Source: Octopus sinensis
Taxonomy: Eukaryota
Direction: 5' to 3'
DNA length: 33,565 bases
NCBI RefSeq assembly: GCF_006345805.1
Contig: NW_021831982.1
Location: 1 to 33,565, forward strand
Shown here: positions 10,380-16,802 of the stretch, one piece after another
Numbering within the stretch: position 1 is the first letter of the stretch
Layout of the letters: every line of letters begins with the position of its first letter
Made by a program: the position numbers and the translations under genes
Notes under the pieces: model-generated
Database searches by the model: none
Seen by the model: the letters and a program-made list of their open reading frames with translations, nothing else
What the model was told of the DNA's origin: nothing

Positions 10380-10525
10380 TAGAAATATTATTATTTCTAA
10401 GTCTCTCTAAAGGAGACTACGGCAGCGGTACTGGATATAAATAATTATCACCAAGCTAACATGGCTGTCCAGGAAAATAGGACGAATGCTGCCATTGATT
10501 AGCTCCAAACTACCGTCGCCTCTAG
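10380..10525 (-). repeat. Partial copy of the non-coding element at 12026-12340
   Basis: Direct repeat of 12026-12171 (AGAAATATTATTATTTCTAA...CCAAGCTAAC...GATTAGCTCCAA...GCCTCTAG). Confidence 0.9.
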
Positions 10526-10567
10526 CGTACTATTTTCCTGTACTGCCATGTTAGCTTGGCGATAACT

Positions 10568-10598
10568 ATTATTATTATCATTATTATTATTATTATTA

Positions 10599-10739: not shown

Positions 10740-11395
10740 GTTTGTGAAAGCACGTGGGTGAATATATAGAAAAAAGTAAAGAGTGAAAAAACTACAGAAG
10801 GCTTAAATGTTAAAAAATATATATATTTGCGTCCATATGTCTGAATAATATTAGAAAATTAAAAAAAAAAATTTTTTCTCTTATAATGACATAATTTAAA
10901 AGAAAGACCGGTTTCGCGTGTAGCTTTTCAAATTTCTTGCGACGTTATGTTTATGTTGAATAGAGTTTTCGTTATGTTTATGTTCAGGAGAGTTCTAAAT
11001 AAGGGAAGGTAGTGAGTGATTTCTTCCGGTGTAAGGGAGATAATCGCTTAAAATTTTTTTCCTTTCCCTTGGTGTGAATTTCTCTGTATTAGTATGTTCG
11101 GATGGTTGAGTCTGGGCTTGTATTTTTCAATGAAGAATGTTTCCTTGTTTAGTCTAATTTGTGTTGATGATCCGAAAGCACATTGGTAAAATGGAAAGAT
11201 TAAAAATTGTGGTAGTAGTTGCTTTGCGCATTTTTCAATGTGCTCACTAAAAGGTATCATTCTATATTCTGGGAATGCAATCTGTTGTCGATGCAGTGTG
11301 CATCTACGTCTGAGTGATAGTCCCGTGGAACCCACGTAGTCTTGGTGGCAGCCCGAGCTCTTTATGACATAAATTATGTTTTCAGAGGCACAGGT
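10740..11395 (-). mobile_element. Penelope-like element 3' part: GIY-YIG endonuclease plus 3' UTR/pLTR
   Basis: CASENIIYVIKSSGCHQDYVGSTGLSLRRRCTLHRQQI...SEHIEKC...RLNKETFFIEKYKPRLN is a GIY-YIG domain of PLE type. A hammerhead motif lies downstream. Confidence 0.9.
10889..10950 (-). ncRNA. Type I hammerhead ribozyme, U3:A8 core variant
   Basis: ACATAA..AAGAAA-T-TTGAAAA-GC(TACAC)GC-GAAAC-CG-GTC|TTTCTT..TTATGT. Confidence 0.75.
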
Positions 11396-11693
11396 CTGCC
11401 AAAATTCATAAAAGTCAAATTATAAATGAAACCATTAAAAAATCACCAAAGACATACATACATACACCTAACCCGGGGGACCTAAAACTACGACCCATTG
11501 TAGCTGGCCCAACCTGTGAAACACACAGACTAAGTCTACTTATGGACATCCTCCTGAAACCCTTCCTTAAACATATCGATAGCCATATCAGAGATGACTT
11601 AGATATGTTAAACCACCTTCCAAAAAAAGCCAAGGAAGAAACAATCCTGGTTTCATTTGATGTAGTTAACTTATATACCAGTATACCTCATAA
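11393..11693 (+). mobile_element. Penelope-like element reverse transcriptase N-terminal fragment (inverted)
   Basis: GLP/KIHKS...DLKLRPIVAGPTCETHRLSLLMDILLKPFL...ILVSFDVVNLYTSIPH are PLE RT motifs. Confidence 0.9.
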
Positions 11694-11699
11694 TACCTC

Positions 11700-11812: not shown

Positions 11813-12025
11813 TTTCGTTCCTATATTTGGTTTGCAAGAGTCTTTATGTGAATTCATATATTGAAGCAATGACTTTTGAAGAGGTTGCAAGAAGCAATGA
11901 AAATTTTAGAAAAATAAATATATGTAAATGAGTGAAAACCGAACCGGTCAGTGTGTCAACTAATTAGACATTAAAATAGAATGACTCTCCTCAGACACAA
12001 TAAAACATATGTGTGTGTGCGTGCG

Positions 12026-12340
12026 TAGAAATATTATTATTTCTAAATCTCTCTAAAGGAGAGATACTGCAGCAGTACTGGGTATTAATATTTATCGCCA
12101 AGCTAACGTGGCAGTCCAGAGAAATAGGACGAATCCTGCCGTTGATTAGCTCCAACAAGCCATTGCCTCTAGATAGCTATGTGACTCACAACTCTGTGCC
12201 CATAAAACCTTCGAAATGGGGAGGTCATCAACAACGATTCAGCACCCACTGACCGGTTTCGGGATATTTGCCCCTTATCAATGTAGATTAGCTAAACCCA
12301 GCAGGCGTCGCTGTTGACCGTTTGTTCGAAGGTTTCTTTA
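12026..12340 (-). mobile_element. Non-coding hammerhead-containing repeat (PLE pLTR or retrozyme-like)
   Basis: Partial second copy at 10380-10525. Contains a complete hammerhead fold and no credible ORF. Confidence 0.65.
12205..12335 (-). ncRNA. Type I hammerhead ribozyme, U3:A8 core variant, long stem I
   Basis: ATCTAC-A-TTGATAA-GGGG(CAAATA)TCCC-GAAAC-CG-GTC|A-GTGGGT, with stem I extended by GTTTAGC/GCTGAAT, TCAACAGCGA/TCGTTGTTGA and AAACCTTCGAA/TTCGAAGGTTT. Confidence 0.8.
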
Positions 12341-12682
12341 TATATATTCAGTGGAACACATTCACTGATTTATCTTATCTCCAATCAACCTGTAAACCCT
12401 TCGTCCGAACATATAACAATGCAAATCTCAAACCATATCATTCAATCTGCTATAATGTACCCATAAAAACAAATAAAACATCCAATGGTATAACTTTTTT
12501 GACCTGAAGATATGCTCAACTCTTATCAATTTAATATTTACTTTTTTCTTCTTTTATATATATGTGTGTGTGTTTGGTAATTAGTAAGAGATTTCTTAAA
12601 GAGTTTACCTTTGTGCGTATGTTTGTCTATGTACCTACGTCCCCATACTTTTGTGGTTCGTAATAACCTTTATTATTATTAT

Positions 12683-13203
12683 TGAGTGAGAGTGCATGCC
12701 ATCAAAGTGAAACTGCGGTAAAATATACGAAGCCCAGTATACCCATCATTACTACCCATCTGATAAGGATACACTAGGCACATGCATCACAACCATATGT
12801 GTGCGACATGGTGATCTCATATCAAGATAAACAGCACATGACCTTGCAGGTGGAGCCCAGTTAGAACTTTCTTCAGGTCGGGTAACCTATCCCGCTCAAA
12901 AGGTCCCTGAATAAGGGTTGTTTAAGGATGTTGAAGGAAACACCTATTCTTCCAGAGGTGAATTATTCAAACCCCAAGGAATTCCTCTCAAAACATGACT
13001 GTGATACTCCCCCACTACTTCTGCTCATGATCAGAGATGCACATATCGTCAGCCACCAAGGGACATGCTCAACTGGTTACGGCCAAACAACTGACAAACA
13101 AATCTGTGGTATTGAGCAGAATATTTGCTGTAGCCCATCTTTTATACGAAGACAAAACAATGTACATGATAACACATCCAATCAGTTAAGATCAGAAGCC
13201 ATG
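12683..13203 (-). mobile_element. Interspersed retroposon-like repeat with (AAT)n tail (longer copy)
   Basis: Homologous to 1267-1546. The right boundary is approximate. Confidence 0.8.
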
Positions 13204-13507
13204 ACAGTATTCGTTTTTGCTTCGATAAAATGGCAAAATTGTGGGTGTTAAGTTCCCATGGAGGGGTCTTTCTAACTTGTAAGAAGATGAAATTTTATAA
13301 ATATTACTTCATGTGTGTCTAATATCTATGGTTAAAATTCCATCAACAGCAAAAATATATGAATTGTCATGGGGGTTATGGCCCTTATACGTAGAACATA
13401 ATTATACGTAGAACAATTTCATAAAGATTCATTCAGTACTTTTGACCTAGTTTTGGATCATAAAAGAAATGACTAAAATTTCGGAGTTAAGGCTCCCATT
13501 AGAGTGC

Positions 13508-14009: not shown

Positions 14010-16694
14010 TTGTTGTTGGCATCCTTTTTGTCTCGGGAGACAATGGAGTTGCGCATAAAATAATCTGGTCCGGCTTTTACATTTCATGTCCTAATACACC
14101 TTCTGCTGTGGCTGTGTAGTCCTATCCTGAAAAAACACTCCCTCTGGCAGGTGCCGCAAATGTAGCGAAGACTTTGCCTGGCTGGTTGTAATGCCATAGT
14201 TTCTTGTTGACGTCTTTTCTTGTCTTTCTATTTCTCATCTCTCTCTATGTCACTCCTTTGTGTTCCCTCTTTTACGGTACGTCGCCAATCTCCACGGTTG
14301 CTGGTAACTGCTTCCCAGTTGCTAATATTGATGTTGCAGGCCTTCATGTCCCTTTTGCAAACATCCGTGTAACGTAAGAATGGTCTTCGCACAGACCTAG
14401 TGCCCCTAGCAAGCTCTCCGAAGAGTATGTCCATGGGGATTCTGCCATCTTCCATACGGCTAACATGTCCAAGCCATCTCATACGTCTTTGTGTGAGGAG
14501 TGCAAACATGCTTGGTATTCTTGCTTGCTTGAAGACATCTTTGTTGGGGACATGATTCTGCCATTTGATGCGAAGTATTTTCTAGAGGAAGCGCAGGTGA
14601 AAGATATTTAGGCGACGCTCCTGGCGTGTGTATGGCGTCCAAGTCTCACTTCCATACAGAGTGCTAAGTACACATGCCTGGTAAATTTCCATTTTTGTCA
14701 GCTTATTGTTGTCCCATGCCTGTTTGGAGAGTTGGGCCATCGCAGCAGCTGCCTTGCCAATGCGTATATTGAGCTCAGCATCAAGTGATATGTTGTAGGT
14801 GACGGTAGAGCCAAGATAGGTAAACTTCTCCACCTCCTGTAATCTGCGGTCTCCAATATGTATGTTTGGGATGTCCGATGTAGCCCGACCCATGATGTTG
14901 GTATTCTTGAGGCTGATAACTAAGCCAAAATCGTTACATGCTTGCTCAAAACAGTTGATGAGCTTTGTAGGGCTTCTTCTGTGTATGATACCAGAGCGGC
15001 ATCATCAGCAAATAGCATCTCCTTGATCAAGATGCTTCTGATTTTGGTCTTGACACGCAGGCGCGAGAGTTTTCCGTCACTTCTACTGTGCAGAAACACT
15101 CCATCATCTGATGTCTGAAAGGCATGTGAGAGCAGCAGCGAGAAGAAGATGCCAAATAATGTAGGAGCAAGGACACAACCTTGCTTTACCCCGTTTTTTA
15201 TTTGGAAGGCGGCTGATGTGGAACCATTATGCTGAATGGTGCCTTGCATATCATCATGGAAAGATTTGATGATCCTCAGCAGCTTTGGTGGACATTCGAT
15301 TTTTTGGATTCGGATGAAGAGGCATTTTCTACTTACCAAGTCAAAGGCCTTTGTCCGATCAATGAAGTCCATGTATAAAGGCATTTTCTGCTCTCTAGAC
15401 TTCTCCTGAAGTTGGCGTATGGAGAATATCATATCAATAGTTGATCTGCTTCTTCTAAAGCCACACTGCGTTTCTGGATAAATTCGAGAAGCAAGCAGTT
15501 GTAGCCTGGACAGGATAACGCGAGCAAAGACCTTTCCAACAGTGCTTAGAAGAGATATCCCATGGTAATTGTTACAATCACCACAGTCACCTTTGTTTTT
15601 GTAAAGCGTAATGATGTTAGCATCCCTCATATCCTGAGGGACTCTACCCTCCTCCCAGCACTGACACAGAAGCTCATGAAGGTGCCGAAGCACGATGGTG
15701 TTTTTGCCGGTTTTGATAATCCCTAAGGGGATGCCGTCTTTTCCCGGAACCTTGTTACTTGCTAGGGAGTCAATAACCTTGGTGAGCTCTGCTATAGATG
15801 GCAGACTGTCAAGTTCACACATGACTGGCAAGATCTTGACACCCTCTATTGCAGCCTCAGCAACCGTGGTCTCCCGTGAGTAGAGATCCTGGTAGTACTC
15901 CACCCATCTATCCATTTGCTTGCTTTGGTCCTTGATGAGATCTCCAGTAGTTGATTTCAGAAGGGCTGACTTGGTTGCGGATGGGCCGAGGGCCTTCTTC
16001 AAACCGGCATACATCCCACGGGTGTCGCCACTGTCAGCAGCTAACTGGATACTCTGATAGATTTCCTGCCAATACCTATTTGCACAGCCTGTGGCAGTCA
16101 GTTGGGTTTTATTTCTTGCCTTTCTGAGTTCTTCGAGTGACTTTGTAGAAGAATTACTCTTGTATTGCATCAGAGCAGCACGCTTTGCTTCGATAACTGT
16201 TTCTAGCTCTGAGAGCCCAGCACTGAACCAATCTGGGTTTTGCCTTTCTCTCATGCCGAAAATATCTATTGATGTGGTATACAAAGCTTCCCTGATATAA
16301 TTCCACCTACTTTCAGCAGAGGAGGTTGGGCAGCTACTGAGGGCAACCATGATAGAAACAGCAAAACATTTTCGCATTGTAGGGTCCGAGGTTCTGGCAG
16401 TGTTAATGCGTGGTCGGCCCATTTTCTTGGAGTGATAGACTTTTTTAGGTAGAATCCTCACCCTGCTACCTATTAGTGAATGATCTGTGTCACAATCCGC
16501 GATGTGGTAACTACGGCTCAGTTGAACAGAATTCAGAAAGGATCTTCGTGTAATGAGATCCAGCTGATGCCAGTGGTGAGATCTTGGATGTCTCCAAGAT
16601 GCCTTGTGGGATGTCTTTTTGGCAAAGAATGTGTTGGTGATGCACAGGTTATGGTATGTGCAAAAGTCAAGTAGTCTCTGACCATTGTCATTCA
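14010..16694 (-). mobile_element. RTE-clade LINE, 5'-truncated, ORF disrupted by frameshifts and a stop
   Basis: APE end (NDNGQRLL, SWRHPRSHHWHQLD, DCDTDH), RT (PGKDGIP, YKNKGD, QCGFR, KAFD, GVKQGCVLAPTLF, LFADD, FTYLGS), C-terminal RMRWLGHV and CGTCQRECFFRIGLHSH, (CAA)n tail. Confidence 0.95.
14920..16693 (-). pseudogene. Longest open segment of the RTE endonuclease/reverse transcriptase ORF
   Basis: 599-aa ORF whose first residues come from flanking microsatellite. It continues in other frames at 14582-14893 and 14228-14509. Confidence 0.9.
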
Positions 16695-16802
16695 AACACA
16701 TACACTTACATATATACATACATATATATATATATATATACGATTGATTTGTTTCAGTTGCTGTCTACGAAATCCTTACACACACACACACACACACACA
16801 AA

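What the first reader, a model, noticed from the sequence alone, without database searches (positions are those of the whole stretch)
12205..12335. Second U3:A8 hammerhead with a long multi-helix stem I, in a non-coding repeat
Seen: core UUGAUAA, stem II GGGG/UCCC, GAAAC-CG-GUC, and four stacked stem I helices closed by a perfect 11-bp AAACCUUCGAA/UUCGAAGGUUU. The non-Watson-Crick pairs are G-U only when read on the minus strand. A bulge (CGCCUGCUGG) is placed where stem I-loop II tertiary contacts usually form. Its stems are unrelated to the 10889 motif, yet it has the same core variant. Inference: a separate non-autonomous ribozyme-bearing retroelement family (solo pLTR or retrozyme-like).
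Basis: partly seen in the sequence, partly recalled or inferred. Interest (0 to 1): 0.8.

Follow-up and report, generated by a model that had tools for sequence, protein, structure and literature searches.

The report
Worn copy of a retrozyme family
This is a worn copy of a roughly 360-base, non-coding repeat family that carries a predicted self-cutting hammerhead RNA and is scattered in hundreds of copies with the insertion marks of Penelope-like jumping genes, so it is likely a new member of the known animal "retrozymes", with unusually clear sequence evidence that it is copied by borrowed Penelope enzymes and that its ribozymes work in pairs.

Summary
The hammerhead motif is real (minus strand, core 12281-12275, predicted cut after 12251). 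It is a decayed copy (12026-12367) of a dispersed, ORF-less 356-364-nt repeat: 735 exact matches to a relaxed core pattern, control 0. The family has a canonical type I fold with compensatory changes. The four subfamilies use all four possible palindromes in loop III (93 of 100 listed matches), which points to cleavage as dimers. The unit closes on itself at one fixed point (59 joins, against 1 of the alternative kind), forms partial tandems up to trimers, stops at two fixed 3' ends about 50 nt apart, lands in simple repeats and often has an inverted 5' piece. Autonomous Penelope-like elements (PLEs) in this genome show the same two-end and simple-repeat signature. Best reading: a non-LTR retrozyme mobilised by PLE enzymes; not a solo pLTR. 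Corrections: the 'bulge' is a deletion scar of this copy, which also has an A.A mismatch at the cut site. U3:A8 is already known in nature. Cleavage, circular RNA and the partner PLE are not shown. A young sister family amplified with a mismatched C3.A8 core.

The parts
12026..12367 (-). One nearly full, 5'-truncated copy of the 356-364-nt retrozyme-like unit (family A, oldest ACCGGU subfamily)
   Evidence: 82% to natural copy L013, 72% to young unit L131; GC 0.43; end branch 0.11
12275..12281 (-). Hammerhead core U3-U4-G5-A6-U7-A8-A9
12261..12274 (-). Helix II (4 bp) and loop II CAAAUA
   Evidence: 92% of cells paired; G-C to A-U changes in 9 and 3 of 56 rows
12251..12260 (-). G12-A13-A14, palindromic helix/loop III ACCGGU, C17; predicted cut after 12251
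   Evidence: four palindromes in relatives
12246..12250 (-). 3' strand of proximal helix I; 12250 is A where the family has U (mismatch at the cut site)
   Evidence: 74 of 78 copies have U; helix I pair probability 0.45 here, 0.97-0.98 in most young copies
12282..12290 (-). 5' strand of proximal helix I and the conserved UAC internal loop (UAAU in this copy), likely tertiary partner of loop II
   Evidence: role in tertiary contact is recalled from canonical type I hammerheads, not tested
12298..12307 (-).
12325..12335 (-). 5' arm of outer stem I helix
12205..12215 (-). 3' arm of outer stem I helix
12026..12083 (-). 'Tail' between the family's two preferred 3' ends (12083 and 12026); this copy stops at the second
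12008..12025 (.). Short (CA)n-type simple repeat flanking the 3' end, likely the insertion target
   Evidence: family-wide enrichment
10386..10574 (-). Second, ribozyme-less 3' fragment of the same family (10526-10386) with an inverted 5' piece (10526-10574), flanked by (TA)n and (ATT)n
10762..11694 (-). Comparator, not part of the element: truncated young autonomous-type PLE (GIY-YIG end plus minimal hammerhead near 10900; inverted RT piece 11393-11694 on +)

Best explanation
This is a decayed copy of a dispersed, non-coding 356-364-nt repeat that likely works as a non-LTR retrozyme: a predicted self-cleaving RNA unit, likely copied into the genome by the reverse transcriptase and GIY-YIG endonuclease of autonomous Penelope-like elements. 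Shown: unit size, no ORF, canonical type I hammerhead fold with covariation, fixed end-to-start join, partial tandems to trimers, two fixed 3' ends, simple-repeat targets, inverted 5' pieces, successive subfamilies. Inferred: tandem copies are transcribed; two hammerheads swap their palindromic loop III and cut as a dimer; monomers are ligated to circles by a host ligase; a PLE protein nicks an AT-rich repeat, starts reverse transcription at one of two internal sites about 190 or 240 nt downstream of the cut site and runs a variable distance round the template, which gives copies of 0.3 to over 3 units. The window copy itself is likely inactive or weak.
For: Copy number: 329 matches within 3 mismatches of a 35-nt core pattern and 735 exact matches to a relaxed pattern, controls 0. 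Fold: 89.4% of 2528 cells pair; 50 cells change on both sides against 29.6 in shuffles (0 of 500), slid controls 29-42% paired. Loop III: of the 100 rows listed (contigs C1-C2 only; my tally) 93 are palindromes, ACTAGT 35, ACATGT 31, ACGCGT 21, ACCGGT 6, and they sort by subfamily (12 changes against 61 shuffled); monomer helix III probability 0.0 in 20 of 20 motifs folded, while the four palindromes self-pair at -4.6 to -8.3 kcal/mol. Template continuity: end2-to-start joins 27 (74 old loci) plus 32 (41 young loci), end1-to-start 1, other joins 12. Arrays: three hammerheads 361-365 nt apart in L131 and L140. 3' ends: 92 of 128 (old) and 65 of 72 (young) free ends fall at two sites; 51 of 92 and 59 of 65 are followed by simple repeats against 281 of 1887 and 177 of 991 background 40-mers. 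Inverted 5' piece in 33 of 74 and 25 of 41 loci. Same-genome control: of 18 ends of the 10889 PLE family, 9 stop at one site and 9 about 35 nt further, all before simple repeats (my tally). Free 5' ends do not pile up at the cut site (2 of 128, 0 of 72 within 3 nt). Longest ATG frame on the sense strand 21 codons; no tRNA gene in the units of 4 loci. Intact 775-781-aa RT-GIY-YIG frames exist in the genome.
Against: No PLE with a homologous pLTR or tail was found among 37 GIY-YIG/PLE loci (30 of 147 listed matches plus 7 stretches) or the 4 long loci of the 10889 family, so the partner is unidentified. The old subfamilies reach at most 1.6 units in 74 loci; classic retrozymes form longer arrays. 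In L131 and L140 two neighbouring units are identical and the third differs (3 and 5 mismatches), so part of those arrays may be later DNA duplication or assembly error. On control (a) the number of pairs with double changes (12) equals the shuffle mean (12.0), and copies are related, so covariation counts are not independent; the two outer helices show little covariation (1 of 13 and 1 of 10 pairs). RNAalifold found only a weak consensus, -0.74 kcal/mol. CG/TA and GC/AT loop III changes could each arise by two CpG-type transitions. The tree's bootstrap had not settled. An uncleaved tandem transcript explains the DNA data as well as a circle. No cleavage or circular RNA was shown.
Confidence: 0.8

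Rival explanations
1. The copies are truncated 3' stumps (solo pLTR plus tail) of an autonomous PLE, and the tandems come from the enzyme jumping between RNA templates.
For: Two 3' ends, inverted 5' pieces and simple-repeat targets are exactly what stumps of autonomous PLEs in this genome show. My PLE sampling was small.
Against: Both 3' ends are used about equally (44 vs 48; 30 vs 35), but only end2 is joined to the unit start (59 vs 1), always at the same point and in all subfamilies. PLE protein matches occur in 5 of 169 (partly overlapping) loci, none joined upstream of the unit start. PLE pLTR hammerheads here are minimal, without the CAAAUA loop.
Confidence: 0.08
2. It is a non-autonomous PLE-mobilised mini-element whose template is an uncleaved tandem transcript; the hammerhead is an RNA fold needed for protein binding or is rarely used, and no circle exists.
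For: In a lizard PLE, hammerhead mutants still insert in vitro and unprocessed RNA is the main substrate (PMC11167929). cDNAs cross the cut site freely. A young sister family spread with a mismatched C3.A8 core (15 of 46 exact matches, 97-99% alike).
Against: Core positions are the least changed, helices I and II are kept by double changes, loop III stays palindromic through four states: hard to explain without selection on a dimeric catalytic fold. Copies of non-integer length up to over 3 units fit a circle. Tested retrozymes of coral, mussel and axolotl are circular RNAs (PMC7229834).
Confidence: 0.25
3. It is mobilised by another retroelement (LINE or the N-terminal-endonuclease Naiad PLEs) or spreads as satellite DNA.
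For: A LINE-type RT frame lies in the window; Naiads also target (TA)n and carry tails and inversions (bioRxiv 2021.04.23.441226).
Against: No poly(A) or repeat tail of its own; internal fixed 3' ends and the tail are described as PLE-specific; copies are dispersed over all large contigs and mostly under 2 units. A Naiad partner would still be PLE machinery.
Confidence: 0.07

Closest known systems
Non-LTR retrozymes of animals (Cervera and de la Pena 2020, PMC7229834; Li, Clavereau and Pollet, bioRxiv 10.64898/2026.07.22.740005)
   Same: Non-coding unit in the 150-450-bp range (mussel 350-390, axolotl 330-350), GC under 50%, canonical type I hammerhead with short palindromic helix III, tandem and monomer copies, co-existence with PLEs.
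   Different: U3:A8 core; mostly dispersed partial tandems; clear PLE insertion marks (two 3' ends, inverted 5' pieces), which the sections I read do not report for retrozymes (there PLE mobilisation is proposed from co-occurrence and pLTR similarity); no homologous pLTR found here.
PLE pLTR hammerheads (Cervera and de la Pena 2014, PMC4209133)
   Same: Type I motif, palindromic helix III, proposed dimer cleavage; a U3-A8 variant with about 1,300 hits in Schistosoma mansoni.
   Different: Those are minimal motifs next to an ORF; this one has 6-bp helix I, 4-bp helix II, a conserved internal loop and a long enclosing stem, with no ORF.
Anolis Poseidon element PAc (Frangieh et al. 2024, PMC11167929)
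   Same: Two internal reverse-transcription starts that define the genomic tail; AT-rich targets; no ends at the hammerhead cut site.
   Different: PAc is autonomous; its starts lie in the ORF; here the signature is seen in a non-coding unit and only as genomic ends.
Natural U3:A8 hammerheads (Perreault et al. 2011, PMC3088659)
   Same: C3:G8 to U3:A8 covariation seen in nature and reported active in vitro.
   Different: The passages read do not describe an amplified mismatched C3.A8 lineage like family B.
Sm-alpha and newt satellite 2 hammerhead repeats
   Same: Canonical type I fold with loop-loop contact; dimer cleavage for newt-type motifs. That loop II and the UAC bulge match the Sm-alpha contact is recalled, not checked against a figure.
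   Different: Different sequence, core pair and insertion pattern.

Membership tests
Type I hammerhead ribozyme | Conserved core with a 3:8 pair, GAA, A15.1-U16.1, NUH | tested here: met
   U3:A8 in 92 of 100 rows (my tally; 6 C3.A8, 2 C3:G8)
Type I hammerhead ribozyme | Helices I and II form, with covariation | tested here: met
   family: 94.6% and 92.0% cells paired, double changes; window copy weakened
Type I hammerhead ribozyme | Loop I-loop II tertiary contact | tested here: inconclusive
   UAC bulge and CAAAUA conserved; contact itself not computed; match to the canonical motif is recalled
Type I hammerhead ribozyme | Self-cleavage | not testable with these tools
   needs an assay
Non-LTR retrozyme | Unit of 150-450 nt, GC under 50% | tested here: met
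   356-364 nt; GC 0.43
Non-LTR retrozyme | No protein-coding frame | tested here: met
   longest sense ATG frame 21 codons in array L131; one antisense frame of 97 codons; no PLE protein match in the unit
Non-LTR retrozyme | Tandem copies with a hammerhead in each unit | tested here: met
   young subfamily: L131, L140 (three), L132, L133 (two); the window copy is a monomer and old loci reach 1.6 units
Non-LTR retrozyme | No LTR, PBS or PPT; no tRNA head | tested here: inconclusive
   no flanking LTR-like structure in the locus maps; no tRNA in units; PBS and PPT not searched
Non-LTR retrozyme | Expressed as linear and circular RNA | tested here: inconclusive
   only contigs of runs guessed to be RNA were available; they cannot show strand, ends or circles
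PLE-type insertion | Two 3' ends with a tail between | tested here: met
PLE-type insertion | Partial tandem and inverted 5'-truncated piece; AT-rich or microsatellite target | tested here: met
Solo pLTR of an autonomous PLE | RT-GIY-YIG ORF joined upstream in some copies, or homology to a pLTR | tested here: not met
   (limited sample of PLE families)

The most novel reading that the evidence does not exclude
This genome holds a long-lived lineage of circular-RNA retrozymes whose insertions prove PLE-driven rolling reverse transcription from two fixed internal start sites, whose hammerheads cycled through all four self-complementary loop III palindromes (each subfamily pairing only with its own kind), and one young branch of a sister family spread with a mismatched C3.A8 core, a natural test of whether cleavage is needed for retrozyme mobility.
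Probability: 0.45. Interest if true: 0.65.

Novelty: new member of a known kind. Interest (0 to 1): 0.45.

Why it matters
Which enzymes move animal retrozymes is open: the papers read name PLEs as candidates from co-occurrence and pLTR similarity. This family carries the PLE insertion signature itself, next to autonomous PLEs of the same genome that show the same marks, and it names two exact priming sites that can be tested with a purified PLE protein. The four-way palindrome series is clean natural evidence for dimeric hammerheads, and the C3.A8, U3:A8 and C3:G8 relatives offer a natural series for core function. The window copy itself is a fossil, and both the retrozyme class and the U3:A8 pair are known, which caps the interest.

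Tried and rejected
Rfam: no hammerhead match in the window or 4 copies. Expression: no RNA holder listed. Contigs of 4 runs guessed to be RNA cover the family, and 2 of them bridge the end-to-start point; a 387-nt contig of run X3 overlaps itself by 27 nt on a 360-nt unit by my count, short of the 30-31 nt I would expect (recalled assembler behaviour) for a closed loop, and it fits inside an ordinary 1.2-unit genomic copy, so it was rejected as evidence of a circle. Its nearest genomic copy matched only 23 of 34 alleles. One search (2 guessed-RNA and 2 unlabelled runs) showed U at the cut-site pair but did not list all differences, so core integrity of that contig is unknown. Circular-fold z-score of the young unit was as strong on the antisense strand (-7.2) as on the sense (-6.8), so it does not show strand. 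My idea that 12380-12800 is a decayed PLE RT was not supported by tblastn. Partner search: PF26215 not in the library; PF01541 loci showed no pLTR homology; no solved-structure match for a PLE frame. A pile-up of 5' ends at the cut site was looked for and not found; six copies start 5-10 nt upstream in loop III, too few to interpret. Literature: searches (hammerhead ribozyme + octopus, 4 of 5 listed; none of 15 listed of 4,965 held 'retrozyme'; retrozymes + mollusc, 5 of 6 listed; 2 of 3 listed; core variants, nothing relevant) showed no description of this family; these are listings only. Lunse et al. on PLE hammerhead variants was not held and the supplement of PMC7229834 could not be read; both, the unsearched file 1 of PMC4209133 and the closed bioRxiv supplements may already list these motifs or the C3.A8 variant. 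Earlier findings by place and sequence: none.

Full report
Setting. The window is the whole of contig C8453 of a 2.72-Gb animal assembly, rich in simple repeats. That the host is probably an octopus is my recollection from genome features and was not tested.

The observation. The motif is on the minus strand as described: core 12281-12275, helix II with loop CAAAUA, GAA-ACCGGU-C with the predicted cut after 12251, and an 11-bp outer helix. The minus strand folds at z -3.49, the plus strand at -1.26. My descriptor finds only this hit in the window; 200 shuffles gave no strict hit. Rfam does not recognise it. Two details are wrong. The pair beside the cut site is A.A, where 74 of 78 copies have U. 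The CGCCUGCUGG 'bulge' is an arm whose partner strand lost about 9 nt in this copy; in relatives that helix is paired in 88.8% of cells. The conserved internal loop is UAC/U, six pairs from the core, and the window copy has a change in it too. Helix I has pair probability 0.45 here against 0.97-0.98 in most young copies. So the copy is decayed.

The family. A DNA search gave 776 candidates, 40 scored, at 74-89% identity. A 35-nt core pattern has 329 matches within 3 mismatches, and a relaxed pattern 735 exact matches; reversed controls gave 0. In 74 distinct old-type loci (52 of the first 64 and 22 of the next 30 after removing overlaps) copies are a median 85% alike to one natural copy. The unit is about 356-358 nt and covers window 12026-12367; a second, ribozyme-less fragment with an inverted piece lies at 10386-10574. 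Younger subfamilies are homologous over the whole unit (75%) with a 364-nt period. A tree of 129 of 166 motif-bearing stretches (37 short or unrelated rows left out; bootstrap not settled) puts the window copy in an ACCGGU group with long end branches (about 0.1) and the ACGCGU group with many end branches of 0-0.02.

The ribozyme. On 56 aligned copies the hand-drawn structure pairs in 89.4% of cells, with 50 double-changed cells against 29.6 in shuffles; slid controls pair 29-42%; but the count of pairs with double changes equals the shuffle mean, copies are related, and the two outer helices covary little. RNAalifold alone gave a weak consensus. Core positions deviate in 12 of 616 cells against 718 of 6320 elsewhere, and 2 of 110 against 97 of 1137 in the 10 rows chosen by the 3' half only. 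Loop III is the strongest signal: of the 100 rows listed of 735, 93 are palindromes and all four possible central pairs occur (my tally). They sort by subfamily. A monomer helix III has probability 0.0 in all 20 motifs folded, while the palindromes self-pair at -4.6 to -8.3 kcal/mol. This fits the dimer model described for animal type I hammerheads (PMC4209133; PMC6765202). Two of the switches could be paired CpG-type transitions, but single-change forms are rare (7 of 100). U3:A8 is known in nature and reported active (PMC3088659; PMC4209133) and is also the core of the autonomous PLE hammerheads here.

How it is inserted. Free 3' ends fall at two sites about 50 nt apart in 92 of 128 old and 65 of 72 young cases, and are followed by simple repeats in 51 of 92 and 59 of 65, against 15-18% background (sequences). 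Head-to-head inverted 5' pieces occur in 33 of 74 and 25 of 41 loci. These are the tail, target and inversion marks of PLEs (bioRxiv 2021.04.23.441226), and the tail has been traced to two internal reverse-transcription starts (PMC11167929). Autonomous PLEs in this genome behave alike: 9 and 9 of 18 ends of the 10889 family stop at two sites about 35 nt apart (my tally), and intact 775-781-aa RT-GIY-YIG frames exist.

Not a pLTR stump. The unit's second end runs on into its own start at one fixed point 59 times; the first end does so once, and 12 joins are of other kinds. Both ends are used equally, so template jumping would give both joins. The continuity is therefore in the template, a circle or a tandem transcript. 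Free 5' ends are spread along the unit and do not stop at the cut site (2 of 128, 0 of 72), so a cleaved linear monomer is not the usual template. Old loci reach 1.6 units; young ones include arrays with three hammerheads (L131, L140), though two units in each are identical and may be later duplications. No PLE coding sequence is joined upstream in 169 partly overlapping loci, and the unit has no DNA similarity to the 10889 PLE or to 37 other PLE-type loci except one inserted piece in L230. The partner is not identified.

Mechanism. Shown: anatomy, fold conservation, fixed join, PLE-type ends. Inferred from PMC7229834 and PMC11167929: transcription of tandem copies, dimer cleavage, ligation to circles, internal priming by a PLE protein at an AT-rich nick, and variable read-round. 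I give 0.8 to a PLE-mobilised retrozyme-type element; within that the circle is likely but unshown, and an uncleaved tandem template remains a real rival (0.25). The RNA-guess contigs decide nothing.

Comparison and novelty. It meets the sequence features of non-LTR retrozymes that could be tested; expression and cleavage could not be. Mussel retrozymes of the same size are known, and a 2026 preprint argues for PLE origin from co-occurrence and pLTR trees in vertebrates. My searches listed no description of this family or of tails on retrozymes, but key supplements and Lunse et al. were unreadable. Papers as seen: PMC4209133 parts 1-2 of 4 and passages of one supplement; PMC7229834 parts 2-4 of 6; PMC11167929 parts 1-2 of 4; bioRxiv 2026.07.22.740005 parts 1-3 of 5; passages only for bioRxiv 2021.04.23.441226, PMC6155905, PMC6765202 and PMC3088659.

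Beyond the finding. A second 360-nt family (B) shares only the hammerhead core and the architecture. Of its 46 exact pattern matches 31 are U3:A8, 15 C3.A8 and none C3:G8 (my tally); the 5 C3.A8 loci compared are 97-99% alike, with partial tandems up to about 2.5 units, though helix I folded poorly (0.01) in the two C3.A8 loci tested. Either C3.A8 works, or spread does not need cleavage.

Verdict. Real feature, new member of a known kind, with better than usual sequence evidence on two open points (PLE mobilisation and dimer action). Interest 0.45.

Noticed in passing
L195:3126-3799, L196, L197, L208-L210 (C3.A8); L199, L202, L206, L211, L213 (U3:A8): Young 360-nt sister family B with the same two-end, partial-tandem, inverted architecture; 15 of 46 exact core matches have a mismatched C3.A8 pair, 31 U3:A8, 0 C3:G8.
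   Followed up: partly
L189:1501-1531, L198:3022-3052: Rare, more distant relatives with the canonical C3:G8 core and the same CAAAUA loop and UAC bulge (2 of 100 rows).
   Followed up: no
L244, L247, L248, L250 (e.g. G000:C19:35625500-35631500): A young endonuclease-bearing PLE family has an upstream ORF (up to 444 codons from the first Met) overlapping the 781-aa RT-GIY-YIG frame; a U-UUU-UUA heptamer sits in the -1 register 22 codons before the upstream stop in 4 copies, with only weak downstream structure and an in-frame ATG nearby. Possible programmed frameshift; canonical EN+ PLEs are described as single-ORF.
   Followed up: partly
window 10762-11694: Truncated copy of a young PLE family (96-98% to 40 scored copies) with a U3:A8 minimal hammerhead, an inverted RT piece and the longer of two 3' ends; the linker has a CxxxxCxxC motif as in Neptune/Nematis.
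   Followed up: partly
L221, L230, L233-L236, L242, L243, L247: pLTR hammerheads of another PLE family: U3:A8, long helix II, ACAUGU palindrome, two 3' ends before (TA)n. U3:A8 looks general for PLE-type hammerheads of this genome.
   Followed up: partly
L040:1848 and 2091: A further U3:A8 hammerhead family with ACCGGU and a GUA cut site, as an inverted pair next to a family A copy.
   Followed up: no
window 11814-12005: Another dispersed repeat (77-86% to pieces of L051, L195, L206, L231) that contains an ACCGGT palindrome but no hammerhead core by my descriptor; covered by contigs in the 4 runs laid.
   Followed up: no
window 12670-13208: A ~540-nt repeat (85-93% in L018, L053, L060, L088, L093, L135, L154), often near these insertions; no PLE protein match.
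   Followed up: no
window 14920-16764 (-): 613-aa open frame with an RVT_1 domain (E 3.8e-22), probably a LINE-type element.
   Followed up: no
L105, L108, L118, L120, L122, L151: Six copies begin 5-10 nt upstream of the cut site, inside GAAA/loop III; possibly reverse transcriptase stalling at the ribozyme core.
   Followed up: partly
L091, L095, L096, L112: Inversion joins sit in the outer stem I helix, as if the fold guides the template switch.
   Followed up: no
runs X5, X6, X8, X9: Words of this stretch are held by runs under four organism labels (shares 0.20-0.50); X5 and X9 were laid and hold many family variants, which suggests the family predates several related species.
   Followed up: partly
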